From Elusimicrobiota bacterium (GTDB taxonomy: Bacteria; Elusimicrobiota; Elusimicrobia; UBA1565; UBA9628), in NCBI GenBank assembly GCA_033875325.1, contig JANRKA010000071.1, positions 8,980-72,979 on the forward strand: DNA of 64,000 nt. Reading direction: 5' to 3'. The first letter of the stretch is position 1; every line of letters starts with the position of its first letter. This document shows positions 4,907 to 62,966 of the stretch, piece by piece. The notes under the pieces are model-generated. The model did no database searches. It was given only the letters and a program-made list of their open reading frames with translations, and was not told where the DNA came from. The position numbers and the translations under genes are program-made.

Positions 4907-4944
4907 CGCGGGCCGGGCGGCGCGGTCCTGTGTATAATCGGGTC

Positions 4945-6360: not shown

Positions 6361-7709
6361 GGGCCGACCTCTACCAAGGCCTGGTCCTCGCCTTCCTGCT
6401 GGCGACGCCGTACCTCGCCGAGAGCCAGGGCCACGCGCCGGCGGACCGCTGGCCGTGGGCGGACCCGGCGCTGTGGACGGTCGTCGCGGCGGCGGCCGCG
6501 GCGCTGGGCGGCTTGACGCGCCTGGCCGGGTCGAGGCGCGACGGGGGGCGCCTGCGCGCCGCGTGGCTGGCCGCGGCCTGGGCCGCGTGCGTGTGGCTCG
6601 CGTCGCGGCCGGCGGGCGGGGCTTTTTTCTCGTCGGAGCGGGTCTCGGACCCGGTCCTGCTCGCGGCGCTCGGGCTGTTCGTCGCGCTCGCGGCCGGGCC
6701 CGGCGCGGCGGCGGCCGCCCGCGCCTGCGAGACCGCGGCGCTCGCCATGGGGCCGGTGCTGCTGCTGAGCGCGTTCTCCTGCCTGCGCGCAGCGGGCGCG
6801 GCGCCGACGCCGCGCGTCCCGCTCCCCGCGCGCGCCGGCGACGCGCGGCCCAGCGTGTTCGTCTTCCTGTTCGACGGCTGGTCGCGCGAGCTCTCGTTCC
6901 CCGGCGGCCGGCCGCGCCCGGGGCTCGACAACCTGGCGGCGCTCATGGAGGTCTCCACCTTCCACGCCGACGCGCGTTCCCCGCACTTCGCCACGGAGGA
7001 GTCGGTGCCGCGCATCCTCTTCGGCGCCTGCGGCGACGCGGGGTGGCGCGGCCGCCCGTCGTTGTTCGTCGGCCCGCGCGCCGCGGGCTGGCGCACCGTG
7101 CTGGCGGGGTGGGTGGCGCCTTACCCGGCGCCGGACGAGCGGCAGGGCGTGGACCTGTTCGCGCTGACGGACGGGCGCCGCGCGCCGACGCCGTTCCTCG
7201 CCCGCCTGCCCATCTACGCCTACGCGCTCCTGCGGCCGCACCTGGCGCGCCTGCGCCCCGGCGAAGACGCCACGGGCTCGGTGCTGGTGCTCGCCACGCT
7301 GGGCCTGGAGGAGATCCACGCGCTGGCCATGGAGACCATCAGCCGCGACGACGAACCGCTGCTCGCGTTGTTCCACTACCCCATCCCGCATCCGCCGCTC
7401 GTCCACGGCCGCGCGGGTTTCGACCCGCGCGCGGAATACGCGCCAGACGCCGCCGCGGCCGGCCTGGAGCACCTCGACCGGGTCGTCGGCGAGCTCGTCG
7501 CGCGGCTGAAGGCCGCCGGCCGCTTCGACGCCTCCGCCATCGTCCTGCTGTCCGACCACGGGCGACGCTTCGCCGGGGAGGACCCGACCCGCGTCCCGCT
7601 GCTGGTCAAGGCGCCGGGCCAACGCGCCGCGCGCCGCGCGACGGGCCGCTTCGAGTTGTGCCGCCTGGACGCGCTCATCGGCGCCCTCGCCGCGGGGCGG
7701 TCGCCGTGA
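6357..7709 (+). CDS. membrane-anchored sulfatase / alkaline-phosphatase-superfamily protein (LTA-synthase/PEtN-transferase-like)
   Basis: The ATG overlaps the upstream stop (ATGA). It has N-terminal TM helices, then 'VFVFLFDGWSRE' and 'IVLLSDHGRRF' motifs typical of the sulfatase fold. Confidence 0.5.
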   Translation: MRADLYQGLVLAFLLATPYLAESQGHAPADRWPWADPALWTVVAAAAAALGGLTRLAGSRRDGGRLRAAWLAAAWAACVWLASRPAGGAFFSSERVSDPVLLAALGLFVALAAGPGAAAAARACETAALAMGPVLLLSAFSCLRAAGAAPTPRVPLPARAGDARPSVFVFLFDGWSRELSFPGGRPRPGLDNLAALMEVSTFHADARSPHFATEESVPRILFGACGDAGWRGRPSLFVGPRAAGWRTVLAGWVAPYPAPDERQGVDLFALTDGRRAPTPFLARLPIYAYALLRPHLARLRPGEDATGSVLVLATLGLEEIHALAMETISRDDEPLLALFHYPIPHPPLVHGRAGFDPRAEYAPDAAAAGLEHLDRVVGELVARLKAAGRFDASAIVLLSDHGRRFAGEDPTRVPLLVKAPGQRAARRATGRFELCRLDALIGALAAGRSP

Positions 7710-7815
7710 GCCAACCCTACTTCGACCCGGGCTCCGGCTCGCTGCTCGTGCAATACGCGGCGGGCCTCCTGCTGGGCGGCCTGCTCGCGTTGTGGCGCCG
7801 GCTGAGGGGGCGCCG

Positions 7816-8625
7816 CTAAGGCGCGAAGGCGCCTTCGTCCGGCGGGTAGCCCGGCGCCGCGGCCGTGCTGAGCGCCAGCTCCTCGAAGGCTTGGTCCGCG
7901 TCGTCGGCGTCCAAGGCCTCCGGCCACAGGCCGGACTTCTGCATGCGTCCGATGATGCGCCGCGAGTTGCGCTCCACGTATCGGCCGCGTTTGGCCGGGC
8001 TCCAGCGACGCGGGTTGGGCAGCACCACGGCCATGGCCACGGCTTCGTCCGGCGTCAGCTCCGCCGCGCTTTTGCCGAAGTAGGCCCGGGCCGCGGCCTC
8101 CGCGCCGAAGACGCCGTTGCCCCACTCCGCGCAGTTGAGATACAGCTCGAGGATGCGCCTCTTGCCGAGGACCTTCTCCAGGCGCCGCGCGATGAGGGCC
8201 TCCTTCACCTTGCGCAGCGGGTTGCGCGAGGGGGAGAGGTAGAGGTTCCGAGCCAGCTGCTGGGTGATGGTGCTGCCGCCGTGGGCGAGCTTGCGCTCGC
8301 TGAGGTTGCGCTCCCAGGCCACGCGCTGCGCGGCCCAGTCCACGCCGTCGTGACGCCAGAAACCGTCGTCCTCGGCCGTGACGACGGCGCTCTTGAGGTG
8401 CTCGGAGATCGCGCCGAGCGGCACGAAGTCCCAGCGCAGGGAGAAGGGTTTTCCCGCGGCCTTGGCCTGGCGCTTGCGCAGCTCGATGTAGGCCGTGGTC
8501 TTGGGTGGGCGCTTCTTCAGGGGCGCGGGGTCGGGCAGCCACAGGACCCAGCCGACGGCGGCGGCGAGGCCCAGCAGGAGGGCGGCGAGGGTCGCGCGTA
8601 GGACTGGCATGACGGGGACGCCCAT
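7816..8625 (-). CDS. mtgA: monofunctional biosynthetic peptidoglycan transglycosylase (GT51)
   Basis: It has a signal/TM N-terminus and the GT51 motifs 'AEDDGFWRHDGVD', 'GGSTITQQLARNLYL' and 'KRRILELYLNCAEWG'. Confidence 0.85.
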   Translation of the reverse strand: MGVPVMPVLRATLAALLLGLAAAVGWVLWLPDPAPLKKRPPKTTAYIELRKRQAKAAGKPFSLRWDFVPLGAISEHLKSAVVTAEDDGFWRHDGVDWAAQRVAWERNLSERKLAHGGSTITQQLARNLYLSPSRNPLRKVKEALIARRLEKVLGKRRILELYLNCAEWGNGVFGAEAAARAYFGKSAAELTPDEAVAMAVVLPNPRRWSPAKRGRYVERNSRRIIGRMQKSGLWPEALDADDADQAFEELALSTAAAPGYPPDEGAFAP

Positions 8626-8633
8626 GTTACCAT

Positions 8634-8960
8634 TTGGGCATGAACCGACTCCTGCTCGCCGTACTGCTGTCCGGCTCGGTCGCCGTCGCCCGCGCCGCCG
8701 ACGCGCCCGCCGCCGAGAAGCCCGCCAAAGGCGAGGCCAAGGACGAGGTGCGCGCCGAACGCGAGGCGTTCCGGGCGGCGCTGGCCGACGCCGAGGAAGC
8801 CTTCAAGCGCGACGGCGGGGACCCCGCCGAGCACCGCCGCAGGATGCGCGATTTGCGCAAGGCGCATCACGACAAGATCCGCGCCATGCGGCTCAAGCAG
8901 CGCCAGGAGCGCGTCGGACCCGACGGCAAGCCGCGGCCGAAGTCCGAGAAGAAGAAGTAG
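8634..8960 (+). CDS. secreted highly charged low-complexity protein
   Basis: It has a signal peptide 'MNRLLLAVLLSGSVAVARA' followed by a K/E/R-rich region. There is no recognisable domain. Confidence 0.4.
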   Translation: MGMNRLLLAVLLSGSVAVARAADAPAAEKPAKGEAKDEVRAEREAFRAALADAEEAFKRDGGDPAEHRRRMRDLRKAHHDKIRAMRLKQRQERVGPDGKPRPKSEKKK

Positions 8961-8968
8961 GCGGGCCG

Positions 8969-9370
8969 TCAGGCCTTGCCGGGGACCCGGCGCAGCAGCT
9001 TCAGGCGCGCCCGTATCGAGTGCCGCTCGGCGAGGGTCGCCTCCGGGCGCTCGAGCAGCGACTCGAAGAGCCCGCGGCTCTCGTCCTTGCGGCCCAGGCG
9101 CAGCAGGTAGTCGGCCTTCTTGAACACGGCCGAGAAGCGGCGGAAGGGCGCCTCCAGGGCGATGGCCTTGTCGAAGGCGGCCAACGCCGCGTCGGTCTCG
9201 CCCAGGCGGTCGTGAGCCTCCGCCGCGTAGACGCAGACGAGCGCGCGGTCGAGGTCGGGCAGGTCGGAGGCCGCCAGCTCGTTCAACACGGCGAGGGCCT
9301 CCCGGTGCGCGCCGCGGGTGGCGTGTTTCTCGGCCTTCTCCGTCGCGGCTCGGAAGTCGTCGAAGTCCAT
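8969..9370 (-). CDS. TPR-like repeat protein
   Basis: This 133-aa ORF shows TPR-like helical repeat periodicity ('EALAVLNELA', 'AALAAFDKAIALEA'). Confidence 0.45.
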   Translation of the reverse strand: MDFDDFRAATEKAEKHATRGAHREALAVLNELAASDLPDLDRALVCVYAAEAHDRLGETDAALAAFDKAIALEAPFRRFSAVFKKADYLLRLGRKDESRGLFESLLERPEATLAERHSIRARLKLLRRVPGKA

Positions 9371-23307: not shown

Positions 23308-24522
<1,215 letters not shown>

Positions 24523-24677: not shown

Positions 24678-25958
<1,281 letters not shown>

Positions 25959-27482: not shown

Positions 27483-27487
27483 CAAAA

Positions 27488-27532
27488 TGGTGGCGGGGGA
27501 CAGGATCGAACTGTCGACACCCGGTTTTTCAG
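27488..27532 (-). pseudogene. orphan 45-nt copy of tRNA-Phe 3' exon (anticodon loop to CCA), diverged direct repeat
   Basis: The RNA-sense sequence is CTGAAAAACCGGGTGTCGACAGTTCGATCCTGTCCCCCGCCACCA. This aligns to the 27703-27747 exon with 5 substitutions. No matching 5' half lies upstream. Confidence 0.6.
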
Positions 27533-27702
27533 ACTGGACTACATTTGGGAATGGTCGGACGAAAAAACATCTGTTTTTCCGTCGCTTTTCGATACTCAAA
27601 ACGGTCAAAAACGACCACTTCCAACGAATTTTTGTCGAGATGTGTGTCGAGATGAGCCCTTTTTCAGGGCCCATCCCGACATCACGCGACGGCTTTCAAA
27701 GA

Positions 27703-28021
27703 TGGTGGCGAGGGCCAGGATTGAACTGGCGACACCCGGTTTTTCAGCGTTTTGTTACCGCTCCACGCGGAGCAGGGCCGACCTTCCGACCTCTTCACGT
27801 TACCGTGAAGACCAGACTATATCTTCCGCTTCGAGAGCGGTTAGGCGTGTAGTCGTTACGGGTTCCCCGAGGTTTACGCTCCTCGAGGCCTTCCCTCGGT
27901 ATTGTCCTCCCAGCTCTCGCCGGGGTGGGAGTTCCACCGATATAGCCTAATGCAATTCCCGCCGTCGCCGGCGGGAGGGGCCGATTTGTTGACCGGTGCT
28001 CTACCACTGAGCTACCTCGCC
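27703..28021 (-). tRNA. tRNA-Phe(GAA) interrupted by a group I intron (5' exon 27992-28021, 3' exon 27703-27747)
   Basis: Joining the exons gives GGCGAGGTAGCTCAGTGGTAGAGCACCGGT|CTGAAAAACCGGGTGTCGCCAGTTCAATCCTGGCCCTCGCCACCA. This is a canonical cloverleaf. The anticodon loop CUGAAAA gives anticodon GAA. The variable loop GUGUC and the overall layout match E. coli tRNA-Phe. Confidence 0.8.
27748..27991 (-). ncRNA. group I intron (IC3-like) inserted between tRNA positions 31 and 32
   Basis: The 244-nt insert carries the conserved catalytic core 'GACUACACG' (R/P7 5') and 'AAGAUAUAGUC' (S/P7 3'). The 5' exon ends in U and the intron ends in G (omega-G). A candidate IGS GCCGG can pair with exon CCGGU to form a U•G wobble. 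Confidence 0.7.
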
Positions 28022-28103: not shown

Positions 28104-29210
28104 TTAGGCGGCTAACACGCGAAGGAGGCTGCCGTCCTCGGCGACATGCAGCAGCTTGTTCGGTTGGGCGTGGGCCTTGAGCGGGATATCGAGCAGCTTT
28201 TCGAACTCCCACTTGTTCAGCGCTTCCACGACCGCCGCGTCGAGCCCGAACTCGAGACTGAGGGGGTGGTGGGGCTCCCATTCGGGCCGGCGCTCCGGCT
28301 TGCCAGGCGCCTCCAATCGGAGCGGGCCAATCTGTTTGATCAAGTCCGCCGTCTCGCCGTATTCGTCCCGCAGGAACGTCCTTCCTTCGTGCTGGATCTC
28401 GCCCTGAAACTTCGGCATCTTTTCCACGACAGGCCCCGGAATCCATTTCTTGGTTCGGACGATCTCGGAGCTTCTGCGCTCGATGGCGCTGGCGAGAGTC
28501 GCCATGCCCGCAAGGGCTGCCGCGCTTCGGTAATGCCGCGCGAGCTGTAGATAGCGTTCCTCAGTCGACGGCGGCTTCAGGTCCTCGTCCCCCGGGGGAT
28601 CGAAGATGAAGAGCTCGACCGGCGGCCCATCGTTCGGCAGAGAGGAAATCACGCCGTACTTGTAGTTGGCGACATGCGCGGCCTTCTTGGCAGCGAGGTC
28701 TTTGGAGGCGCCGCGCACCTGCGAGCGTCTGCTCCGTCCCCGCGCCTCATAGACGGCGGTGAAGCCTCGTGAAACCACGCGGAAGTCGCATCGCTTGCTC
28801 GTGGTGGTAATTCGGGTGATCTCCGCGAGCTTGACCGAGAGAGCCTTGCACATCGTCAAGGTCGCCAGCCCGACGCCGAGCACCTGGGAGACCGCCCCCG
28901 TCCACTCGTGATCGCCAGACGCTCTCAGATGCAGGGCCTCCGTGCCCGCGTCTCGATACATGGTTCCAGCGAGGTCATCGAAGGCCCGGACTATTCGCCG
29001 GGCGGGCCCGCAGTCGCGGATGAGATAATGAACGGAGGCGTAGTGGATCAGGGCGATGGGGCGAATCGTGATTCCGGTTCGCACAAGATTCCTGAGCACT
29101 CCACTGTGCGGGTAGCTGTTCGTGGCACAGGAGCCATCGCCGTCTCGCACGGGAATAGAACATTCCGCGAATAGGTCCCTGATGAAGCCGGGAATGCCTG
29201 AGTACAGCAT
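28104..29210 (-). CDS. hypothetical 368-aa protein (no recognisable domain), first gene of a 3-gene minus-strand cassette
   Basis: It is a long ORF with good codon usage and lies next to the tRNA. It contains an Rx4H stretch (RASGDH). Confidence 0.4.
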   Translation of the reverse strand: MLYSGIPGFIRDLFAECSIPVRDGDGSCATNSYPHSGVLRNLVRTGITIRPIALIHYASVHYLIRDCGPARRIVRAFDDLAGTMYRDAGTEALHLRASGDHEWTGAVSQVLGVGLATLTMCKALSVKLAEITRITTTSKRCDFRVVSRGFTAVYEARGRSRRSQVRGASKDLAAKKAAHVANYKYGVISSLPNDGPPVELFIFDPPGDEDLKPPSTEERYLQLARHYRSAAALAGMATLASAIERRSSEIVRTKKWIPGPVVEKMPKFQGEIQHEGRTFLRDEYGETADLIKQIGPLRLEAPGKPERRPEWEPHHPLSLEFGLDAAVVEALNKWEFEKLLDIPLKAHAQPNKLLHVAEDGSLLRVLAA

Positions 29211-29648
29211 CTACCGCGCTTCGAGCCGCCAACGTGCCTCGCGTTTGCCGAGGCTCCGCACCGCGATCAGCGCCGCGCGGTTCTTGTCGCGAGGCCTGGA
29301 GCGGCCGCCTTCCCAGGCCGAAACCGCTCCCGCGCTCGCTCCCACCAGCTTTCCAAAAGCCTCTCGTGAAAGACCCAGGCGGGCACGCTGCGAGCGGATC
29401 AAGTGAGGCCCGAGGTGCGCGTTCTTCACCTCTGCTCCCGAGGCGGTGGGGGGCGCAGTCATGCGCGCTCTATAGTCGGTCTGGAGCTTGGCGTTGTCTC
29501 GCCGCAGTTGGTCCGTGGTCCGGGACAGCTCCGCGACCTTGTGCTTGAGGGCGATGACATCCTTCCTGAGCTTGGCGTCTGCTTGGCGCGACACTCGGCG
29601 GGCCAATCGCTGGATTTCTTCTCTAAGAACCGCACCGATGTTGGGCAT
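29211..29648 (-). CDS. XRE-family helix-turn-helix protein with N-terminal coiled coil
   Basis: 'IRSQRARLGLSREAFGKLVGASAGAVSAWEGG' is an HTH_XRE. The N-terminal 60 aa show a heptad-like pattern. The stop abuts the start of the 368-aa gene. Confidence 0.55.
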   Translation of the reverse strand: MPNIGAVLREEIQRLARRVSRQADAKLRKDVIALKHKVAELSRTTDQLRRDNAKLQTDYRARMTAPPTASGAEVKNAHLGPHLIRSQRARLGLSREAFGKLVGASAGAVSAWEGGRSRPRDKNRAALIAVRSLGKREARWRLEAR

Positions 29649-29658
29649 GTCGTCCCTC

Positions 29659-30087
29659 CTAAAACTTCGTCGCGCAAACGAACGCGCCGATTCCGATGAA
29701 AAGAAGCACCGCCGCGCTGCATGCGTAATCCGCCGCGGTGTACCAGCACTCCGCCTTGCCCATTTCCGCGAATCGAGCGTCGAGCTCCTTCATCTGATCG
29801 TCGGCTGGGTCTTTACGCTCATGTTTGCCGAGCCATCGGCTCCAATGACGCAGGGATTTCGCTTGGTGCTGGCTTCCGAGATAATGCGCGAGCTGCTGGA
29901 CCAGGCAGGCACAGATAGGGACGAAGAACAGGCGCGCCATTCCTCGCAGCGAGGCTTCTTTCCCCAGCTCGTATAGCGCTCCGGTCGAAAGGCCGATGAC
30001 CGTTGTCATCAGCGCTAAGCCGACGCCGCGGTAGCGTTCGTGGGCCTGCTCGGCTTTCTCCGATTCGGCTTCGGTATCTAGTGCCAT
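29659..30087 (-). CDS. small membrane protein (2 predicted TM helices)
   Basis: It is 142 aa. Hydrophobic segments are 'GVGLALMTTVIGLSTGAL' and 'AAVLLFIGIGAFVCA'. Confidence 0.4.
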   Translation of the reverse strand: MALDTEAESEKAEQAHERYRGVGLALMTTVIGLSTGALYELGKEASLRGMARLFFVPICACLVQQLAHYLGSQHQAKSLRHWSRWLGKHERKDPADDQMKELDARFAEMGKAECWYTAADYACSAAVLLFIGIGAFVCATKF

Positions 30088-30091
30088 CGTT

Positions 30092-31627
30092 TCAAGGTTT
30101 CAGCTTCAGTCGTTTGATCCGCGGCACGAAGATCTCATGGAAGCGTTCGAGGGAATGGAGCATCCATTCGTACGCCTGGGGCCATGCCGCCCGGTCGAGG
30201 AGCTTGCCGTCGAAATGGGTCTGGATCTGGCTTTCCTTCTTCGTGGGGAGCGGCTCCCAGCGTAGAGGAGCGCCGAATTCCTTATCGATCGCCGCCTTCT
30301 CCGTCTTCAGCAGCTCGTAGTTCTTCTTGCGATCCGGACCCTTGATCGCGATGTAGACGGCGAGCCGGTTCTGGCTCGCGATGGCGACGTAAAGGAAACC
30401 CCCGGTGTTGATCGTCATCCAGCCCTTCGGGCGCGGGACTGGATAGCGTAGTTTGCTGCCGGCTTTCTCCGCGTAGTTGCGGAAGCCGCTCCAGAAGTCG
30501 AACTGCAGTTTCGTGACGCCGCCCGCCCCGTTGGTCGACGCGCGCCCCGGCAGCGCCTCGTCCAGGTAAGGCTTCAGGACCTCGATGAAGCGGTGGATGC
30601 GTCCGGCGATGAATTCCGGGTCATCGGGCACCGTCTCGTAGAGACAACTCGAAGGATGATCCTCCCAGGAAACTTTGTCGCCGAGGGCCTCCTCGATTTC
30701 GCGCCGGTGGGCGGTGAGCAGGGTCTTGAGCGCGCGGTTATGGCGAGGCTGGCAGTTGGTGTGTACCTGGAACGTGCGATCCGCGGGGTCGTAGTAGAGA
30801 GAGATACCCTCATAGATGGTCTTCCAGCGCGAGAAGACGCCTTGAACATACTGCTTGCTCCTGTGGAGCCTCCAGCCCTCGCCGGCGGGGCAGTCATCCT
30901 TTAACATTCCCTCCACGCCGTCGAGCAGCTTGGAAAAGCGTTCCTTCACGTCCGCAGGCACGTTTGCTGCTTCCCCATCCTCATTCTCGTCGTCTTCCTT
31001 TGCGGACTGTGCCGGCCGCGCGGAGTCGTGCAGGGGGTTTATCAGCAGGTATTCATCGTTCGTCGTCGTGACGAAATTTGAGAACTGCAGGACGCGGCAG
31101 TCGAATCGAAGGCCGCTGATCTGGGTGATGAAGTCGGAGTCGAAGTCTTCCGCCACTACGACGCCGACCTGTTCGTCGTTGAAGTCTGGTACGTGAGTGA
31201 CCTTGAAGTGCTCCTTGAAGCGTCGCACGAGGTTGTTGACTTCGCGGTCGAAGGGGATGAGGTTCGCCTTGCGCGCGAGCTCGCCGTCGGACCACCCGCT
31301 GATCGCGGTGAGGTAGTCGTTGAGCTGGGCGACGGTATCGCGGGGAGCCCTCCCGCGCTTCAATTCGATCACGACGACGCGGCCGTGCTGGTCGAGAGCG
31401 AGCAGATCGATGAACGCGCCGCGATCGGTCTTCACCTGCCGGCCGATGAGGAGGATGTCGTCGCCGAGCAGATGCGGATTGGCGCCGAGCCAGTCCTCGA
31501 GGTTCTTCTCCAGGCGCTCGAAGCCGAACTGCCTCTTCTGGATCGGCTGGAACACCCCGGCGTCCGACTTGAACAGCTTCATCGTCATGTTACAAGGATG
31601 ATACCAAGCACGGTCCAGCGAGTCCAC
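30092..31627 (-). CDS. NucS/DUF91-like PD-(D/E)xK nuclease fused to C-terminal DUF4268-like domain
   Basis: It has 'GAFIDLLALDQHGRVVVIELKRG', the D…ExK nuclease core. The C-terminal region is 'GWMTINTGGFLYVAIA…YIAIKGP'. An alternative start at Met14 (31588) overlaps, as ATGA, a small upstream ORF. Confidence 0.6.
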   Translation of the reverse strand: MDSLDRAWYHPCNMTMKLFKSDAGVFQPIQKRQFGFERLEKNLEDWLGANPHLLGDDILLIGRQVKTDRGAFIDLLALDQHGRVVVIELKRGRAPRDTVAQLNDYLTAISGWSDGELARKANLIPFDREVNNLVRRFKEHFKVTHVPDFNDEQVGVVVAEDFDSDFITQISGLRFDCRVLQFSNFVTTTNDEYLLINPLHDSARPAQSAKEDDENEDGEAANVPADVKERFSKLLDGVEGMLKDDCPAGEGWRLHRSKQYVQGVFSRWKTIYEGISLYYDPADRTFQVHTNCQPRHNRALKTLLTAHRREIEEALGDKVSWEDHPSSCLYETVPDDPEFIAGRIHRFIEVLKPYLDEALPGRASTNGAGGVTKLQFDFWSGFRNYAEKAGSKLRYPVPRPKGWMTINTGGFLYVAIASQNRLAVYIAIKGPDRKKNYELLKTEKAAIDKEFGAPLRWEPLPTKKESQIQTHFDGKLLDRAAWPQAYEWMLHSLERFHEIFVPRIKRLKLKP

Positions 31628-31712
31628 GGCGGGTCGGTCCGCGGGCGCTCCACCCCGTTGGGGTCCTGAACGAAGGAAGTGCTTTTCCCGGCTGCCGACA
31701 TAACGCAGGTCT

Positions 31713-31989
31713 TATTTTTCATAACCACCTCCCGCTCAGCCGGCCAGGAGTGAGCGGCGCCGCGCCTGCGGCATAAACGGTCACCCCCGCCGACGATCGG
31801 GAAATTCGGCCCAACCCCCGCCGTGCCCCAAATTGCCCGACAGCGCGCTCCGCGCGGCCGCCAGCTCGGCTGCGCCGGGGGCGGTCGCCAGGTGGGGACC
31901 CACCATTTATTCCTCATCGCGGCGCCGCTCCTCGGCCGCCTTCGACCCTTCGGGCGTTCGGAGGTGGTTATGAAAAATAAGACCTGCGT
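31713..31989. repeat. perfect 30-bp inverted repeat pair bracketing a 217-bp leader; the right copy contains the RBS+ATG+6 codons of the JAB gene
   Basis: 31713-31742 is ACGCAGGTCTTATTTTTCATAACCACCTCC. It is the exact reverse complement of 31960-31989, GGAGGTGGTTATGAAAAATAAGACCTGCGT. Confidence 0.7.
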
Positions 31990-32518
31990 GAAAGTCGTAA
32001 CGGACGGCAAGACGGACACGGCGCCGGTAGCTGGTGAGTCTCTGGCCACGGAAGCCATGAAGCGTTCGAGGGTGCCTCTCTACCGGGTGATGCTCGACCG
32101 GACGGGCTCTATCCTCAAGGAGGGGACGGCATTCGTCACGGAGCCGCGAGAGGCTGCGCGGTTGTTCCGTGAGTTCATCGGGGACGCACCGCAGGAGCAC
32201 TTCTGTCTGATGGTGCTCGACGCGAGAAAGCGGGTCATCGGAATCAACGAGGTCAGCGTAGGGACGCTCTCCGCGTCCTTGGTGCATCCGCGAGAGGTCT
32301 TCCGGGCGGCCATCCTGCTCAACGGCGCGGCCGTCGTGGTGGCGCACAACCACCCGAGCGGCGACCCGGCTCCTTCCCCGGAGGACCGCGAGGCGACCCG
32401 ACGGCTCCAACGCGCGGGAGAAATCCTCGGCATTCCCGTCGCGGACCACATCGTGCTGGGAGAGGGCGAAGGAGCCTCCCTACGCTTCTTCAGCTTCCGC
32501 GACGGCGGGTTGCTCTAG
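31970..32518 (+). CDS. RadC-like JAB/MPN domain protein (DUF2466)
   Basis: It has 'VVAHNHPSGDPAPSPEDREATRRL', the HNHPSG JAMM-like motif. Confidence 0.8.
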   Translation: MKNKTCVKVVTDGKTDTAPVAGESLATEAMKRSRVPLYRVMLDRTGSILKEGTAFVTEPREAARLFREFIGDAPQEHFCLMVLDARKRVIGINEVSVGTLSASLVHPREVFRAAILLNGAAVVVAHNHPSGDPAPSPEDREATRRLQRAGEILGIPVADHIVLGEGEGASLRFFSFRDGGLL

Positions 32519-32586
32519 GGCGTCCACGCCGCCGCCCTGGGGCGACCCGGGGCGGTCCGTGGGCGCCTTAGCCCAAGGAGAACACC

Positions 32587-33051
32587 ATGAACATGAATGA
32601 ATGCGTAAGCCGTGAGCGCGAGGCGTTGAAGGAGCGGCGGCGTCTGCTGGTCGAGAAGCTCAAGCCGTTCGGAGTCGTCAGGGTCGAGGTCGATTACGAC
32701 GGCTGCGGGGACTCGGGCGATATCCAGGAAGTCCGCGCCTTGAAGAAGGGCCCCCGCTCCGACAAGGAGCAGCCCGCGAACCTGGACGGGCAGAGCGTCA
32801 CAGTCGAGCGCTTCGAGAGCGTCTACAACACCGAGCGCAAGGACTGGGACCGCAAGCCCTACCAGGCCACGGTGACGCTCAAGGAGGCGTTGAGCGACTT
32901 CGCGCTGGACTTCCTCTCGTTCCTCGGCATCGACTGGTACAACAACGAGGGCGGCTACGGGACCATCGTCCTGGATGTGGCGGGGGACGAGGCCAAGGCC
33001 GAGCACAACTATCGCATCGAGTCCAGCGAGTATTCGGAGCACGCCCTGTGA
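32587..33051 (+). CDS. hypothetical protein (mobile-element-associated)
   Basis: It is 154 aa and acidic, with 'DYDGCGDSGDI'. It overlaps the next gene as ATGA. Confidence 0.4.
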   Translation: MNMNECVSREREALKERRRLLVEKLKPFGVVRVEVDYDGCGDSGDIQEVRALKKGPRSDKEQPANLDGQSVTVERFESVYNTERKDWDRKPYQATVTLKEALSDFALDFLSFLGIDWYNNEGGYGTIVLDVAGDEAKAEHNYRIESSEYSEHAL

Positions 33052-33422
33052 GCCATACCTACCACCATGCCGTGAGCTCGGCTCGACTGTTCGGCGGCAA
33101 GCCCGAGGACTACCAGGCCGTTCATGACTGGTTCGACGAGAGCAAGGCCCACTTGGCCGAAGCCAGGCACCGGGCCAAGCGCCACCACGCGGAAGGCATC
33201 TTCGAGGCCGAGCGCGTGTTCGGCAAGACCATCATCAACAGCAACGGGACGAAGGTGCCCGTGCGCTACATCGGCGAGCAGCACGTCAAGGAGGATTGCG
33301 GCGGCTTCATCCCGTCCGAGGCCGATTGGTGGCGCTGCATCGTGCGCCAGCCGTGGATGAACCGCGGCTACGAGAGCAAGGACGGCTCCAACGCGCGGGC
33401 GGTCCGCGCGTCGGAGCCGTAA
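33048..33422 (+). CDS. hypothetical protein
   Basis: It is 124 aa and translationally coupled to the upstream gene. A hairpin terminator follows it. Confidence 0.4.
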   Translation: MSHTYHHAVSSARLFGGKPEDYQAVHDWFDESKAHLAEARHRAKRHHAEGIFEAERVFGKTIINSNGTKVPVRYIGEQHVKEDCGGFIPSEADWWRCIVRQPWMNRGYESKDGSNARAVRASEP

Positions 33423-33436
33423 CGCAAAAGCGGTTC

Positions 33437-33465
33437 GGGGCCCGTCGGCGAAAACCGACGGGCCC
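33437..33465 (+). terminator. hairpin terminator GGGGCCCGTCGG-CGAAAA-CCGACGGGCCC
   Basis: It is a perfect 11-bp stem. The 3' U-tract is weak (TCTGCTTTG). Confidence 0.55.
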
Positions 33466-33469
33466 TCTG

Positions 33470-33650
33470 CTTTGCGGTGGATATTGCCGCGCCCGTGGAC
33501 GGCGTGGACGAGCAGGTCGCCCACCCCGCCCACCGCCGCTTGGATATCTCTGCCCTGCGGGGCGGATCGGTCCGCGACGCTCCACCCGCGCGAGAGGCCG
33601 CGGGGTCCCCGAGATCTCCACAATCTCCACCGCTCGGCGGCGGAGATTTT
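33470..33650 (+). repeat. partial copy (C) of island repeat family
   Basis: It shares 'GCGGTGGATA..CGTGGACGGCGTGGACGAGC.GGTCGCCCACCCCGCCCACCGCCGCTTGGAT', the palindrome GGCGGATCGGTCCGCG, and the tail 'CTCCACCGCTCGGCGGCGGAGATTT' with copies at 36961, 63775 and 35925. Confidence 0.6.
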
Positions 33651-33699
33651 TTCTTCTTCTCCTTCCACGGCACTTCCCGCTCCGCCGCCTCCCTTCTTC

Positions 33700-33923
33700 G
33701 GTCTGGTCCATTTCGCACCTTCTCTCGGGCCGCAGGAGTGAAGCCCGCCTGCGCTGCGGCATAAACGGTCACCCCTCTCGGCGACTCCCCGGCCGCTCCA
33801 GAGCCTTGCTCGTTCCGCTGGCCGGGTCCCTGCCGGGGGACCCACCATTTATTCCTCGCTTCGACGGACTTCCTCGCGACCCTCCACCCTCCGGGCGGGC
33901 GGAGGTGCGAAATGGCCCAGACC
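33700..33923. repeat. imperfect inverted repeat pair bracketing a 184-bp leader homologous to 31743-31959; right copy includes start codon of gene 33912
   Basis: 33700-33719 is GGTCTGGTCCATTTCGCACC. The reverse complement of 33904-33923 is GGTCTGGGCCATTTCGCACC. Similarity continues into the coding region: the left copy encodes MDQTEEGRRRSGK and the right gene begins MAQTYETRRRSGK. Confidence 0.6.
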
Positions 33924-34298
33924 TACGAGACTCGGCGGCGGAGCGGGAAGCACGAAGGCTCTGACGTGAAAGTCCAGGGACGGAGCCAAGCACCCCGGGA
34001 GAAGCACATGAAAACTGGAAAAGCGTTGGGCTTCAAGAAGGGGGACTTCGTCCACACGGGAGCGTTCCCCGGAATCATCATCAGCGACGTGCAGACGTTC
34101 GCGCCGTGTTGCGAGGTTTGGGGCTTCGAGCACGAGATGGGCTCGGCCTACGCCGAGGACATGACGCTTCTGACCTGGGAGAACTTCCAGGAACTCGCCA
34201 AGCGCTTCGGCTTCGACAGCACCGCCGACTCCAAGACGGCGCAGGAGGCCATCGCCAAGGCGAAGGCGGCGGCTTCGGGGGTTCCCGTAACTGCCTGA
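33912..34298 (+). CDS. hypothetical protein
   Basis: It is 128 aa with no recognised domain. It lies downstream of a conserved leader module. Confidence 0.4.
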   Translation: MAQTYETRRRSGKHEGSDVKVQGRSQAPREKHMKTGKALGFKKGDFVHTGAFPGIIISDVQTFAPCCEVWGFEHEMGSAYAEDMTLLTWENFQELAKRFGFDSTADSKTAQEAIAKAKAAASGVPVTA

Positions 34299-34364
34299 TT
34301 CGACCAGGGGTCCCGAGGGCGACCTCGGGGCCCCGAGCCGGGCCAGGCCCGGGAACTGAAACAC

Positions 34365-35894
34365 ATGGAGAAAACAATGAACGAGACGAAAGAGAAGGAA
34401 GCCATGAAGGTGCCGGAGCGCGCGCTGTTGAGCATCCCGCTCGACAAGGTCGAAATCGTGGAGAACGTCCGCAGGAACTTCGACGCGGCTGAAATGAAGG
34501 AACTCGCGGCGAACATTAAGAAGGTCGGCATCCTGCAGAACATCATCGTCATCCGCAACGGCAAGGGAGCCTACACGCTCTCGGCAGGCGAGCGCCGGGT
34601 GCGGGCCGCGCGGATGGCGGGGCTCGTCGAGATTCCCGCGTCCGTGTACGAGGAAGGCGTGGACCCGAAGATGCTCCAGGTGTTCGAGAACCTCCACCGC
34701 AAGGACGTGGGGCCCGTCGAGGAGGCGCGGGGCTTCAAGCACCTTCTCGACGAGGGCAAGCACACCATCGAGGGCCTGGCGCAGGCCGTGGACAAGTCGG
34801 TGAAGTACGTGACGCGCTCGATTCGGCTCCTCGAACTGCCGAAGGCGGCGGTCAAGGCCGTCGAGGCGGGAACGCTCTCGCCCGAGCACGGCCATCAAAT
34901 CCTCCGCGCCCCGGAGGACAAGCGCGAGACGTTCGTGACGTTCGCGCTGACGCCCAAGTGGGGCGGCGGGAGCGACGTGCTTCCCACCATCCACGACCTC
35001 AAGAACGAAATCGAGCGGCGTTTGGAGAAGGACCTCTCGAAGGCCTGCTTCCCGAAGGACAAGGAGTACGCGGGGGCCATGGCCTGCTCGCTCTGCCCGT
35101 TCAACACGGGCAACCAGGACGTGCTGTTCGAAGGGGCCAAGGACGGCAAGTGCACCGACGGCGGGTGCTTCGCCAAGAAAACGTCCACGTTCCTGCGGGA
35201 GTTCCGCGAGGATGCGGGCAAGAAGCTCGGCGGGGTCAAGTTCGCGGGCTACGCGGGCCAGGACCACGGCATGCCGCGCGAGGTCGGCGAGGGCGTCGTG
35301 CTGAGCGCCTCGGAGGCCAAGAGCGAGGCGGTCAAGGCGCTCCTCAAGAAGGACCCCAAGAAGTTCGGCTTCGCCGTGCTCAAGCCGTCGCGGTTCGGGA
35401 GCAAGTCGCCGAGCGCGGTCCTCGTCTGCAACGACAAGGACTTCGTGACGGCGAAGCTCCGCAAGTCCGAGGAGAAGGCCGAGCGCGGTATGAGCGAGGA
35501 GGAGCGGGCCAAGGCTCACTTCGTCGCGACTCATGAGAGCAAGGCGCTGTTCCTCGCGGCGGCGAAGTCGCTCAAGGCAGTCAAGAAGTCGCACTTGGTG
35601 GACGTGGTCATGGCCTTGAACGGCGAGGAGTTGGCGTTCGAGGCCATCGGCGTCGAGGCCGACGAGGACGCGGCGCGGGCGCTCAAGAAGTTGTCCGAGA
35701 AGGACCTCCTGCGCCTGGCGTGGCTGTGCACGGTCCAGCACTACGAGTTAGACGAGCGCCTCTCGGGCCTCATCGAGGTCAAGAAGGTCCGCAAGGAAGC
35801 GCGGACGTTCGCGCACTCTGAGTGGGAGCGCATCCAGAAGGAGGAGGCCGCGAAGGCCGAGGCTCCGAAGGAGGTTGAGCCCGCCGTGAAGTAG
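34365..35894 (+). CDS. ParB/Sulfiredoxin-like nuclease domain protein (plasmid/ICE type)
   Basis: The N-terminal 'ILQNIIVIRNGKGAYTLSAGERRVRAARMAGL' is the ParB GERR-like motif. The long K/E-rich C-terminus has a Cys cluster 'CSLCPFN…CTDGGC'. Confidence 0.7.
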   Translation: MEKTMNETKEKEAMKVPERALLSIPLDKVEIVENVRRNFDAAEMKELAANIKKVGILQNIIVIRNGKGAYTLSAGERRVRAARMAGLVEIPASVYEEGVDPKMLQVFENLHRKDVGPVEEARGFKHLLDEGKHTIEGLAQAVDKSVKYVTRSIRLLELPKAAVKAVEAGTLSPEHGHQILRAPEDKRETFVTFALTPKWGGGSDVLPTIHDLKNEIERRLEKDLSKACFPKDKEYAGAMACSLCPFNTGNQDVLFEGAKDGKCTDGGCFAKKTSTFLREFREDAGKKLGGVKFAGYAGQDHGMPREVGEGVVLSASEAKSEAVKALLKKDPKKFGFAVLKPSRFGSKSPSAVLVCNDKDFVTAKLRKSEEKAERGMSEEERAKAHFVATHESKALFLAAAKSLKAVKKSHLVDVVMALNGEELAFEAIGVEADEDAARALKKLSEKDLLRLAWLCTVQHYELDERLSGLIEVKKVRKEARTFAHSEWERIQKEEAAKAEAPKEVEPAVK

Positions 35895-35906
35895 GCCTGT
35901 TGACTT

Positions 35907-35932
35907 GGCCCATCCGGGAAACCGGGTGGGCC
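35907..35932 (+). terminator. hairpin terminator GGCCCATCCGGG-AAA-CCGGGTGGGCC
   Basis: It is a stable GC hairpin immediately after the ParB-like stop. Confidence 0.5.
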
Positions 35933-36070
35933 TCTGTGAGCGGGTCGTGCCTGGATGAACGGGGAAAACTTCGATGGCCGGAGTTCGCCCCCTGGCGGGG
36001 CGCGGACCGGTCCGCGAGCGCTCCTCCCTGCCGGATCGGCCGCAGGGACCGCGAACTCCGGTGGAACTAA
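35925..36070 (+). repeat. diverged copy (D) of island repeat family
   Basis: It contains the perfect palindrome CGCGGACCGGTCCGCG at 36001-36016, followed by 'GCTCCTCCCTGCCGG…GGGACCGCGAACTCC'. This is similar to the tail of the copy at 63775. Confidence 0.5.
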
Positions 36071-36479
36071 ACGCGGGGGTCGTTCGTATAGCTTGTGTGG
36101 ATCAGGAGACCCCCGACGCATTCCGGTGGGAGGAATGGGACTGGCGGCCGCTGGCGCGCCTCATCGCCTGGGTCCTCCTCGCCGCCCTTTGGGCGCGCTC
36201 GCGAGACATCGTCTCGCTCGCGCTCATTCAGCGCGTTCTCCGCGAGCTCCTGCTCGGCTGGCTGCTCTCCTTCGGCCTGCTGACTTATGTCCAAGCGCTG
36301 ATCGCCACCGCGGCCTTCCGCCTCGCGCTCGCGCTCGACGACGCCGCTTACGGCCTGTCGGAACGCCTCGTGAGGCTCTTCATGCGCCGCGCGTCGTTCG
36401 CCGCGACTTTCGTCGCGGCGTTCGGCGTCGAGCTCACGTTCGTTCTCGGCGCGCTTTGTCTCGTCGTGGGGGCGCTGCG

Positions 36480-36899
36480 ATGATTACGAGCCTGCGGGTC
36501 GTGCACGCGGGCCGCCGCCCAGGGCCTCTCATCCGTTCGGCCGAGGACGCCTACCGCGTGCTGTGCCCGCTGGCGCGGGGCCTCGACCGCGAGCACTTCT
36601 GGCGGCTCGACCTCGATTCGCGGCGGCGGTTGCTCGGCTGCGAGCTCGTCTCGATGGGAAGTCTCGACGCCTCGATCGTCCATCCGCGCGAAGTGTTCAA
36701 AGGTGCGCTCCTGAACAACGCGCACAGCATCATGGTCGCGCACAATCATCCGTCCCATGACTTGAGGCCTAGCCAGGCGGACCGACGGACCACGAAGCAA
36801 CTCCTGTTCGTCGCGTGCATGCTCCAGGTGGACCTGGTCGACCATCTCATCGTCGGCGACGACAGCTACTTCAGTTTCAAGAAAGCGGGACTTCTCTAG
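36480..36899 (+). CDS. RadC-like JAB/MPN domain protein, second copy
   Basis: It has 'IMVAHNHPSHDLRPSQADRRTTKQL'. The ATG overlaps the stop of an upstream hydrophobic ORF (35974-36483) that may encode a small membrane protein. Confidence 0.7.
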   Translation: MITSLRVVHAGRRPGPLIRSAEDAYRVLCPLARGLDREHFWRLDLDSRRRLLGCELVSMGSLDASIVHPREVFKGALLNNAHSIMVAHNHPSHDLRPSQADRRTTKQLLFVACMLQVDLVDHLIVGDDSYFSFKKAGLL

Positions 36900-62771: not shown

Positions 62772-62877
62772 CGCCGCACATCTGGCCCTCGTGGCTCATT
62801 GGTGTTTGGGTCTCGTCTAGTCCTGCGAGTCGCACGCTGCCTTCCGCGCGACCTAGAAAAATTCTTTAATTGCAGAA

Positions 62878-62932
62878 TAGGCGATGGAGTTCGCCTGAAC
62901 CGCCTCCGCCCAGGAGGCTGATGACTCCTACC
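62878..62932 (+). ncRNA. fluoride riboswitch (crcB RNA motif)
   Basis: 'GGCGATGGAGTTCGCC…AACCGCC…CTGATGACTCCTAC' matches the aptamer consensus (P1 GGCGAUGG/GUUCGCC, pseudoknot ACCGCC, 3' CUGAUGAnUCCUAC). It lies directly upstream of crcB. Confidence 0.85.
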
Positions 62933-62966
62933 GGAAGACGTTCTGGTAGGAGTCATTTTCATTTTA
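62921..62966 (+). terminator. riboswitch expression-platform terminator (ATGACTCCTACC…GGTAGGAGTCAT + TTTCATTTT)
   Basis: The 5' arm of the hairpin is the 3' strand of the aptamer. This is a mutually exclusive fold, typical of transcriptional ON riboswitches. Confidence 0.65.

What the first reader, a model, noticed from the sequence alone, without database searches (positions are those of the whole stretch)
28104..30087. Three-gene minus-strand cassette abutting the tRNA: unknown 368-aa protein + coiled-coil XRE-HTH + 2-TM protein (candidate defence/abortive-infection system)
The cassette is tightly packed: stop/start abut at 29210/29211 and there is a 10-nt gap at 29648/29659. It sits at a tRNA integration hotspot and is immediately followed by a nuclease and other mobile-element cargo. 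The large protein has no domain I can recognise from sequence. It contains an Rx4H (RASGDH) stretch compatible with, but not diagnostic of, HEPN. The small membrane protein resembles effector-type 2-TM proteins (SLATT-like size and topology).
Basis: inference. Interest (0 to 1): 0.6.

Follow-up and report, generated by a model that had tools for sequence, protein, structure and literature searches.

The report
Two-nuclease defence-like operon beside an intron-split tRNA
The three genes are real, but they are the tail of a four-gene operon led by a restriction-like nuclease; the large "unknown" protein belongs to a rare, undescribed family that probably cuts DNA, and the regulator and membrane genes are optional add-ons.

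Summary
Three tightly packed minus-strand ORFs lie at the stated coordinates, and all are under purifying selection (dN/dS 0.04-0.22).

The trio is not a conserved unit. Among about 11 related metagenomic or MAG loci, only the window has all three genes.
- Five lineages have HTH+X without the membrane gene.
- Two have membrane gene+X without HTH.
- One has membrane gene+HTH followed by a different gene.

The constant partner in the close clade is the upstream gene (30092-31588). It is a NucS-like/DUF4268 nuclease that matches PADLOC candidate PDC-S11 (1e-31). It has a conserved promoter and sits 4 nt from the cassette.

The 368-aa protein (X) founds a rare family of about 350 aa: 133 cluster representatives among 1.84 billion, with no Pfam, PADLOC, PHROG or NCBIfam model. 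It carries an E...D...ExK(R) motif on an alpha-beta-beta-beta-alpha-beta core (AF2 pLDDT 89), so it is a probable PD-(D/E)xK nuclease. HEPN and SLATT are not supported.

Distant members sit beside PDC-S06, an SLFN-helicase+MazG operon, or SIR2-HerA/CRISPR, or they stand alone.

Best reading: a modular, horizontally acquired two-nuclease defence-like operon with an optional XRE regulator. No function has been tested.

The "tRNA" is a tRNA-Phe(GAA) split by a 244-nt group I intron.

The parts
28104..29210 (-). X: 368-aa protein of an undescribed ~350-aa family. It has an N-terminal domain (about residues 1-95), a PD-(D/E)xK-type core (about 100-205; E102, Q109 where the family has E, D142, E155, R157 where the family has K, K176) and a C-terminal domain (about 215-368).
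   Evidence: ORF. 10 close homologs among 5.8e9 proteins. 133 representatives at E<=1e-3 among 1.84e9. Family invariants R140, D142, E155, K176 and P205. AF2 model with pLDDT 89 and pTM 0.88, showing an alpha-beta-beta-beta-alpha-beta core. No family hit in Pfam, PADLOC, NCBIfam or PHROGs.
29211..29648 (-). HTH: 145-aa protein with an N-terminal coiled coil (about residues 3-65) and a C-terminal XRE-type helix-turn-helix (about 75-130). Its stop abuts the X start.
   Evidence: HTH_31 at 26.3 bits (cut-off 27), HTH_3 at 20.9 bits (cut-off 23), and weak coiled-coil families. MqsA and DicA subfamily matches below cut-off. phrog_2104 at 3.6e-8. 82-87% identical in related loci. Absent from L009 and L022.
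29659..30087 (-). 2TM: 142-aa small membrane protein with 2-3 hydrophobic segments. It is a facultative gene in the slot between Nuc and HTH.
   Evidence: ORF. Hydropathy. Only 3 homologs (including itself) among 5.8e9 proteins, all directly after the Nuc gene. dN/dS 0.05-0.16. Absent from L001, L002, L004, L007 and L008.
30092..31588 (-). Nuc: first gene of the operon. It has a NucS-like PD-(D/E)xK domain (D59/D64...E73-L-K75, numbered from MKLFK) and a C-terminal DUF4268. It is a PDC-S11-type candidate defence nuclease. The likely start is ATG 31588 or 31582; the open frame runs to 31627.
   Evidence: Pfam NucS_C 4.4e-9 and DUF4268 2.2e-26. PADLOC PDC-S11 8.5e-32 and 1.2e-31. PDB NucS 2vld 3.9e-5. 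Present upstream of X in every informative close-clade locus. DUF4268 nucleases MdgA and MdgB are experimentally shown to be modification-dependent antiphage nucleases (PMC12366544).
31598..31626 (-). Promoter-like site TGGACT-17 nt-TATCAT with a TG extension, about 10 nt upstream of the Nuc ATG. It implies a near-leaderless operon start.
   Evidence: Consensus scan. The same element is conserved upstream of Nuc in L001, L002, L004, L007 and L009, although the flanks differ.
27703..28021 (-). tRNA-Phe(GAA) gene split by a 244-nt group I intron (27748-27991). Its 5' end lies 83 nt from the X stop.
   Evidence: Rfam RF00028 at 47.4 bits, E 7e-11. ARAGORN with the intron option gives tRNA-Phe(gaa) i(31,244), and the spliced sequence folds as a canonical 75-nt tRNA. 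The same arrangement occurs in L011 and L022.

Best explanation
The cassette is the distal part of a four-gene, horizontally acquired operon: promoter, then Nuc, the membrane gene (2TM), HTH and X. I read it as a modular two-nuclease defence-type locus.

- Nuc is a NucS-like/DUF4268 nuclease of the PDC-S11 / Mdg type. Characterised relatives cut modified phage DNA.
- X is a member of an undescribed family whose core is a PD-(D/E)xK nuclease fold (E102, D142, E155-x-R/K157, K176), flanked by family-specific N- and C-terminal domains. I infer that it is a metal-dependent DNA endonuclease acting as a self-contained, restriction-like effector against incoming DNA.
- The coiled-coil XRE protein is a dispensable transcription regulator that tunes expression. 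Its position resembles that of a controller (C) protein of a restriction system. It is not an obligatory antitoxin.
- The small membrane protein is a lineage-specific optional accessory of unknown role.

Shown:
- gene reality and operon layout;
- which genes travel together;
- family size and conserved motif;
- the predicted fold class;
- the neighbours.

Inferred:
- nuclease activity;
- the substrate;
- a defence role;
- the regulatory role of HTH.
For: - Operon: gaps of 4, 10 and 0 nt between the genes, and a conserved promoter only upstream of Nuc.
- Partnership: Nuc lies upstream of X in all 8 informative close-clade loci, although the outer flanks differ (L001, L002, L004, L007, L008, L009, L011 and the window).
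- Nuc identity: PDC-S11 at 1e-31, NucS_C plus DUF4268. DUF4268 nucleases defend against modified phage (PMC12366544).
- X fold:
  - The family-wide motif is SSEVIAVGL...GKRCDF...ExKGR...KK.
  - D142 lies just before beta-2 and E155-x-R157 lies within beta-3 of an alpha-beta-beta-beta-alpha-beta core in a pLDDT-89 model.
  - The weak Foldseek hits are mostly PD-(D/E)xK nucleases: AdnA, RecE, Hjc, NlaIV, Bax1, VRR-NUC, Cas4, MGME1 and HincII.
- Defence-type neighbours of distant members: PDC-S06 at 5.5e-159; an SLFN-helicase (Nhi/AbiO-like)-MazG-97aa-X operon; Cas2, SIR2 and HerA.
- HTH is dispensable. L009 and L022 have 2TM followed directly by X. In L009 the HTH ribosome-binding site and first three codons are fused to X, and X is still under purifying selection.
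- HTH relatives are stand-alone regulators next to BREX, restriction-modification and Abi genes on plasmids.
- Sporadic distribution: 1 of 72,556 plasmids and 0 of 50,697 phages carry a relative. G+C is low.
Against: - The window's X has Q at a position that is E in 54 of 59 family members, and R where 45 of 59 have K. Catalysis could therefore be weakened or lost.
- The defence association rests on about 7 distinct contexts with no background statistic. Two contexts (Aeromonas, Thiothrix plasmid) show no defence neighbours.
- PADLOC has no model for X, HTH or 2TM.
- Co-occurrence of Nuc and X within one narrow clade could reflect shared descent rather than function.
- No methyltransferase was found nearby, and no phage or toxicity data exist.
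Confidence: 0.45

Rival explanations
1. HTH and X form a type II toxin-antitoxin pair. X is a nuclease toxin, and the XRE protein is its antitoxin and autorepressor. Nuc is merely a neighbour.
For: The stop and start abut (TAGATG), as in coupled toxin-antitoxin genes. The HTH shows weak similarity to MqsA/HigA-type antitoxin HTH domains. The pair lies on mobile DNA.
Against: Two independent loci (L009, L022) keep an intact X under purifying selection with no HTH gene. L010 keeps HTH but replaces X with another gene. Distant family members are solitary. HTH homologs on plasmids stand alone.
Confidence: 0.1
2. This is the first reader's model: a three-gene abortive-infection system in which X (HEPN-like) senses infection or cleaves RNA, and the small membrane protein (SLATT-like) kills the cell.
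For: The genes are tightly packed, a small membrane protein is present, and the setting is defence-like.
Against: The trio is not conserved. Rx4H is not conserved and the fold is alpha/beta. There is no SLATT hit. The membrane gene is absent from most loci that keep X.
Confidence: 0.06
3. X is a mobile-element maintenance enzyme, for example a structure-specific resolvase or recombination nuclease of the Hjc/RecE type, and not an immune effector.
For: Weak fold hits include Hjc, RecE and AdnA. The locus lies in an island with RadC, ParB-like, DUF6878 and DUF6915 genes typical of transferred DNA. One homolog is on a small plasmid.
Against: X is transcribed divergently from the RadC/ParB block. 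It keeps its Nuc partner where that block is absent. There are no relatives in 50,697 phages or in the IMG/VR scan, and in only one plasmid. Its neighbours are defence-type genes rather than replication or transfer genes.
Confidence: 0.12
4. X in this clade is a catalytically dead DNA-binding partner that guides or restrains the Nuc nuclease. In this reading the operon is a two-component system rather than two independent nucleases.
For: E109Q and K157R at conserved positions in the window's subclade. Strict Nuc-X linkage within the clade. Mosaic identities suggest that the modules recombine yet stay together.
Against: E102, D142, E155 and K176 are retained. Members with R157 but E109 also follow Nuc (L004, L008). 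Distant members function without Nuc. L010 has Nuc without X.
Confidence: 0.12

Closest known systems
PDC-S11 (PADLOC candidate) / MdgA-MdgB DUF4268 nucleases (applies to the upstream gene Nuc)
   Same: N-terminal NucS-like PD-(D/E)xK domain plus C-terminal DUF4268. PADLOC PDC-S11 hits at about 1e-31 cover both ends. DUF4268 nucleases were shown to restrict modified phage DNA (PMC12366544).
   Different: Nuc is about 496 aa against 315-375 aa for the models, with an extra stretch of about 150 aa in the middle. Here it heads an operon with further genes, whereas PDC-S11 is defined as a single gene. I could not compare it directly with the MdgA/B sequences, because no supplement is held.
Solitary PD-(D/E)xK restriction-type nucleases (type IV enzymes such as Mrr; Shedu SduA)
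   Same: Single polypeptide of about 350 aa with a central E..D..ExK core flanked by extra domains. No methyltransferase partner. Sporadic distribution in accessory DNA and defence islands.
   Different: No sequence match to the Mrr, Shedu/DUF4263, NucS or any other Pfam or PADLOC model. No significant structural match. K is replaced by R in this clade. Neither activity nor modification dependence has been tested.
Controller (C) proteins of restriction-modification systems (from general knowledge of C.PvuII-type regulators)
   Same: A small XRE-type HTH gene immediately upstream of, and coupled to, a nuclease gene.
   Different: The protein is 145 aa with a long N-terminal coiled coil. No methyltransferase is present. 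No C-box-like operator is conserved between loci. The gene is dispensable.
Type II toxin-antitoxin modules with XRE antitoxins (MqsA, HigA)
   Same: Weak HTH similarity (TIGR03830 at 3e-6, below cut-off) and abutting genes.
   Different: The gene order and partner are not conserved, and X persists without HTH.
HEPN and SLATT
   Same: An Rx4H string in X. A small protein with transmembrane segments.
   Different: The Rx4H string is not conserved and the fold is alpha/beta. No SLATT model hit, and probably three hydrophobic segments.

Membership tests
PD-(D/E)xK nuclease superfamily (X) | Acidic and lysine residues in the order E ... D ... (D/E)xK, placed on an alpha-beta-beta-beta-alpha-beta core (D just before beta-2, ExK in beta-3) | tested here: met
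   Family-wide conservation of E102 (57/59), D142 (58/59), E155 (59/59) and K/R157 (45 K, 14 R). AF2 elements: H101-124, E131-133, E143-147, E150-159, H162-177, E183-190. This clade has R157 and Q109.
PD-(D/E)xK nuclease superfamily (X) | Significant sequence or structure similarity to an established member | tested here: inconclusive
HEPN (X) | Conserved Rx4-6H motif in an all-alpha fold | tested here: not met
   RASGDH occurs only in close homologs; the position of H101 varies across the family. The model is alpha/beta. No Pfam HEPN hit.
SLATT (142-aa protein) | Match to the SLATT profiles, and association with SMODS, SLOG or other nucleotide-signalling genes | tested here: not met
   No Pfam family at E<=1 and no PADLOC hit. 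The neighbours are nucleases and an HTH, not cyclase or SLOG genes.
PDC-S11 (Nuc) | Match to the PADLOC PDC-S11 profiles, with NucS-like plus DUF4268 architecture | tested here: met
   PDLC04916 at 8.5e-32 (N-terminal half) and PDLC04913 at 1.2e-31 (C-terminal half). NucS_C 4.4e-9 and DUF4268 2.2e-26. There is an extra middle insertion.
Modification-dependent (type IV-like) restriction (Nuc, X) | Cleavage depends on modified bases in the target DNA | not testable with these tools
   Only an analogy to MdgA/MdgB through DUF4268.
Type II toxin-antitoxin (HTH-X) | The toxin gene always comes with its cognate antitoxin gene | tested here: not met
   L009 and L022 have X without HTH, L010 has HTH without X, and L012, L013 and L014 have X alone.
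Restriction-modification with C protein | A cognate DNA methyltransferase in the same locus | tested here: not met
   No methyltransferase domain among the genes from 26013 to 58795 that were scanned, nor in the close-clade loci L001, L004, L007 and L009.
XRE-family HTH regulators (145-aa protein) | Match to the HTH_3 / HTH_31 profiles above the curated cut-off | tested here: inconclusive
   HTH_31 at 26.3 bits against 27, and HTH_3 at 20.9 against 23. Several concordant sub-threshold matches. Plasmid homologs are annotated as helix-turn-helix regulators.

The most novel reading that the evidence does not exclude
X defines a new, rare family of stand-alone antiphage or anti-plasmid nucleases with its own sensing domains. 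In addition, the Nuc-led operon behaves as a small swap site where downstream modules are exchanged precisely at gene boundaries while keeping one promoter and the ribosome-binding sites. The modules seen are the membrane protein, the regulator, X, a 151-aa D..ECK protein and a 198-aa Cys-rich protein.
Probability: 0.3. Interest if true: 0.55.

Novelty: new member of a known kind. Interest (0 to 1): 0.4.

Why it matters
If X is an active defence nuclease, it adds a family that no current defence catalogue (Pfam, PADLOC 2.0, PHROGs, NCBIfam) can recognise, found from Elusimicrobiota to Firmicutes and Proteobacteria. The set of related loci is also a clean natural experiment. It shows that a regulator and a membrane protein can be gained or lost at exact gene junctions behind a restriction-like nuclease. 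That bears on how defence operons are assembled. The practical gain is modest: the kind of system (nuclease-based innate defence) is well known, and nothing here has been tested for function.

Tried and rejected
- **No family hits for X or the membrane protein.** Pfam, PADLOC, NCBIfam and PHROGs gave nothing for either. Scanning 59 family members gave only two marginal hits.
- **First structure model unusable.** The AF2 model from 11 close homologs was poor (pLDDT 57, core below 50). A 59-sequence alignment fixed it.
- **No structural relatives.** Foldseek against PDB and BFVD gave no significant hit. PDB sequence-profile searches gave nothing.
- **X versus Nuc.** hhalign of the X family against Nuc found no relationship.
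- **Second word-indexed search.** Run with the wide alignment, it added only one protein.
- **Locus scans with limited return.**
  - The genome scan found one locus and the metagenome scan found two.
  - The viral scan found none.
- **Plasmid and phage searches.** tblastn with X and three distant members found only the Thiothrix plasmid.
- **Zinc site rejected.** I considered a Cys/His zinc site in the N-terminal domain (C27, H34, H56, H61), but C27 and H34 are not conserved.
- **Leader peptide rejected.** I considered whether the 45-aa ORF upstream of Nuc is a leader peptide. It is not conserved in L001 or L004, where the promoter sits directly before the ATG.
- **No shared operator.** I looked for a common operator palindrome at the promoter and found none consistent between loci.
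- **MdgA/B sequences.** They could not be obtained, and the H-NS/PDC-S11 preprint could not be read.
Full report
**1. The observation**

The three minus-strand ORFs exist exactly as described: 28104-29210 (368 aa, called X here), 29211-29648 (145 aa, HTH) and 29659-30087 (142 aa, 2TM).
- The HTH stop and the X start abut (TAGATG).
- The 10-nt gap before HTH carries a GGAGG ribosome-binding site.
- G+C at the third codon position is 0.71-0.78 in frame.
- Pairwise dN/dS against homologs is 0.05-0.16 for 2TM, 0.04-0.13 for HTH and 0.09-0.21 for X. All three are therefore real protein-coding genes.
- The block has lower G+C (0.61-0.63) than the DNA to its left (0.70-0.76).
- An exact match of the 142-aa protein places the source in an Elusimicrobiota MAG.

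**2. The tRNA**

ARAGORN in default mode and Rfam at gathering threshold see no tRNA in the window. Reading the sequence showed tRNA halves separated by an insert.
- Rfam in E-value mode finds a group I intron at 47.4 bits (cut-off 50, E 7e-11).
- ARAGORN with its intron option calls tRNA-Phe(GAA) with a 244-nt intron. The spliced sequence folds as a canonical 75-nt tRNA.
- The gene runs 28021..27703 on the minus strand, so the cassette abuts its 5' side at a distance of 83 nt.
- A 49-nt, 90%-identical copy of the tRNA 3' half lies 215 nt further left (27484-27532). This looks like an att scar. It bounds only about 170 bp and lies on the side away from the cassette.
- No other tRNA-half copies occur in the window.

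**3. The real unit is a four-gene operon**

Four nucleotides upstream of the 2TM gene ends a 496-511-aa gene (30092-31588, called Nuc).
- Nuc has a NucS-like nuclease domain and a C-terminal DUF4268.
- It gives strong hits to the PADLOC candidate PDC-S11 (8.5e-32 and 1.2e-31) and a weak PDB match to NucS.
- A promoter-like site, TGGACT-17 nt-TGgTATCAT, lies about 10 nt before its ATG. The same site is conserved in five related loci whose further upstream DNA differs.
- No comparable site precedes the other genes.

**4. Which genes travel together**

X has only 10 close homologs among 5.8 billion proteins, all of them metagenomic. Their contigs, together with the 2TM homologs and the genome and metagenome scans, gave these layouts:

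| Locus | Layout |
|---|---|
| L001/L002, L004, L007, L008 | Nuc-HTH-X |
| L009 | Nuc-2TM-X |
| L022 | 2TM-X, followed by the same intron-tRNA |
| L010 | Nuc-2TM-HTH, then a 198-aa Cys-rich protein in place of X |
| L011 (complete Elusimicrobiota genome CP096137, syntenic with the window) | Nuc cut by an IS3 element, a 206-aa gene in the 2TM slot, HTH and X frameshifted |

- Only the window has 2TM, HTH and X together.
- The constant partner of X in this clade is Nuc (8 of 8 informative loci).
- In L009 the X gene begins with the HTH ribosome-binding site and its first three codons (MPN). This is a precise deletion of HTH.
- X in L009 and L022 is still under purifying selection (dN/dS 0.12-0.14). 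HTH is therefore not an obligatory antitoxin.
- Identities are mosaic. For example, window against L004 gives Nuc 82% and X 61%, whereas window against L001 gives Nuc 63% and X 75%. The modules recombine.

**5. What X is**

An exhaustive profile search found 133 cluster representatives at E<=1e-3 (58 at E<=1e-10), mostly 340-370 aa. Named examples are hypothetical proteins of Pelotomaculum schinkii, Aeromonas sobria and Carnobacterium maltaromaticum, plus one on a Thiothrix plasmid.

No member matches a Pfam or PADLOC family apart from two marginal hits to restriction-enzyme models.

The 59-sequence alignment shows the following conservation:
- invariant R140, E155, K176 and P205;
- near-invariant E102, E109, D142 and D204;
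- the consensus SSEVIAVGL...GKRCDF...ExKGR...KK...KYG..LPRDG..DPP.

With this alignment, AlphaFold2 gives pLDDT 89 and pTM 0.88. The core is helix 101-124, strands 131-133, 143-147 and 150-159, helices 162-177, then strands 183-190 and 199-203. D142 sits just before the second strand and E155-x-R157 lies within the third. This is the classic PD-(D/E)xK layout.

Foldseek finds nothing significant in PDB or BFVD. The weak top hits are mostly PD-(D/E)xK nucleases: AdnA, RecE, Hjc, NlaIV, Bax1, VRR-NUC, Cas4, MGME1 and HincII.

I therefore call X a probable PD-(D/E)xK nuclease with novel flanking domains. My estimate for the fold class is about 0.8.

Caveats:
- The window's subclade has Q109 and R157 where most of the family has E and K.
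- The RASGDH string is not conserved, so HEPN is rejected.

**6. The small proteins**

HTH:
- It has a coiled coil followed by an XRE-type helix-turn-helix. The matches fall just below the curated cut-offs.
- Full-length relatives at about 30% identity are stand-alone regulators on Comamonadaceae plasmids. One lies directly upstream of a BREX system. Others lie near restriction, MazEF or AbiE genes, or next to HU and integrase genes.

2TM:
- It has three hydrophobic segments and no SLATT or other family hit.
- Only three homologs (including itself) exist, always in the slot after Nuc.

**7. Contexts of distant X relatives**

| Locus | Context |
|---|---|
| L005 | Divergent from a PDC-S06 ATPase (5.5e-159) |
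| L023 | Last gene of an overlapping operon: SLFN-type helicase (Nhi/AbiO-like), MazG-like, 97 aa, then X |
| L013 (Pelotomaculum) | Between Cas2 and a SIR2-HerA pair |
| L014 (Aeromonas), L012 (Thiothrix plasmid) | Solitary |

The family is absent from 50,697 phage records and from the IMG/VR scan, and it occurs in 1 of 72,556 plasmids. This pattern suits a rare accessory defence-type gene, but the sample is small and lacks a background statistic.

**8. Mechanism**

Most likely (0.45) this is a modular operon of two nucleases.
- Nuc belongs to the DUF4268 class, whose tested members MdgA and MdgB degrade modified phage DNA (PMC12366544). DUF4268 also accompanies GmrSD type IV enzymes (PMC4619093).
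- X would be a second, self-contained restriction-like endonuclease.
- HTH would tune expression.
- 2TM is an optional accessory.

**9. Verdict**

The genes are real, and the setting is accessory and defence-like. The proposed three-gene system, the HEPN reading and the SLATT reading do not hold. The finding is a new, uncatalogued member of a familiar kind (nuclease-based defence candidates). Interest is moderate.

Noticed in passing
window 27703-28021 (minus); also L011 9501-9762 and L022 ~1307-1495: tRNA-Phe(GAA) interrupted by a 244-nt group I intron at the 5' edge of the anticodon loop. Default tRNA finders miss it. The same arrangement occurs in two other Elusimicrobiota sequences. A literature search turned up no paper describing a bacterial tRNA-Phe group I intron.
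   Followed up: partly
window 27484-27532 and 27699-27747: A 49-nt direct repeat of the tRNA 3' half (90% identical), 215 nt apart, which looks like an att scar. In CP096137 (L011) the two copies are swapped in similarity relative to the window. This suggests past integration and excision or gene conversion.
   Followed up: partly
window 31703-31732 and 31960-31989: A perfect 30-nt inverted repeat (GGAGG ribosome-binding site plus ATGAAAAATAAGACCTGCGT) flanks 227 nt between the divergent Nuc operon and the RadC gene. One arm is the likely RadC start. The other starts a non-conserved 45-aa ORF. It could be an invertible segment or a rearrangement scar. No recombinase was identified.
   Followed up: partly
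window 31970-36899: A plus-strand block of RadC, DUF6878, DUF6915, an unknown 128-aa gene, a ParB-like protein (509 aa) and a second RadC. This set is typical of transferred or conjugative DNA. Beyond it lies cargo: a CDF transporter, MFS transporters, IucA/IucC siderophore synthetase, an RND efflux pump and a P-type ATPase.
   Followed up: partly
window 62871-62937 (+): Fluoride riboswitch (RF01734, 62.4 bits), the only Rfam hit at gathering threshold.
   Followed up: no
L011 (CP096137) 4707-9124: In the complete genome of a related Elusimicrobiota MAG, the same locus is decaying. An IS3-family element replaces the 5' half of Nuc, and HTH and X each carry a frameshift. The frameshifts could be homopolymer sequencing errors; the IS insertion is not.
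   Followed up: partly
L007 3133-3588 and L009 3147-3602: A 151-aa gene directly after X carries a D...ECK motif (AFDLG...VECKSH). It may be a third small PD-(D/E)xK-type protein in the operon. It has no family hit.
   Followed up: partly
L017 (Polaromonas sp. JS666 plasmid 1) 3998-8405: A full-length homolog of the coiled-coil HTH protein sits about 300 nt upstream of brxA/brxB/brxC of a BREX system. This hints that the regulator family may control defence loci.
   Followed up: no
L004 3-1957 (minus): Upstream of the Nuc operon in this contig lie a family-B-type DNA polymerase fragment (YDFTSMYPEMM motif) and a 192-aa protein. They may be part of a self-replicating mobile element. Neither was analysed.
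   Followed up: no
window 23308-24522 and 24678-25958 (+): Two tandem paralogous secreted subtilisin-like protease genes lie on the chromosomal side of the tRNA, and they are syntenic in CP096137.
   Followed up: no
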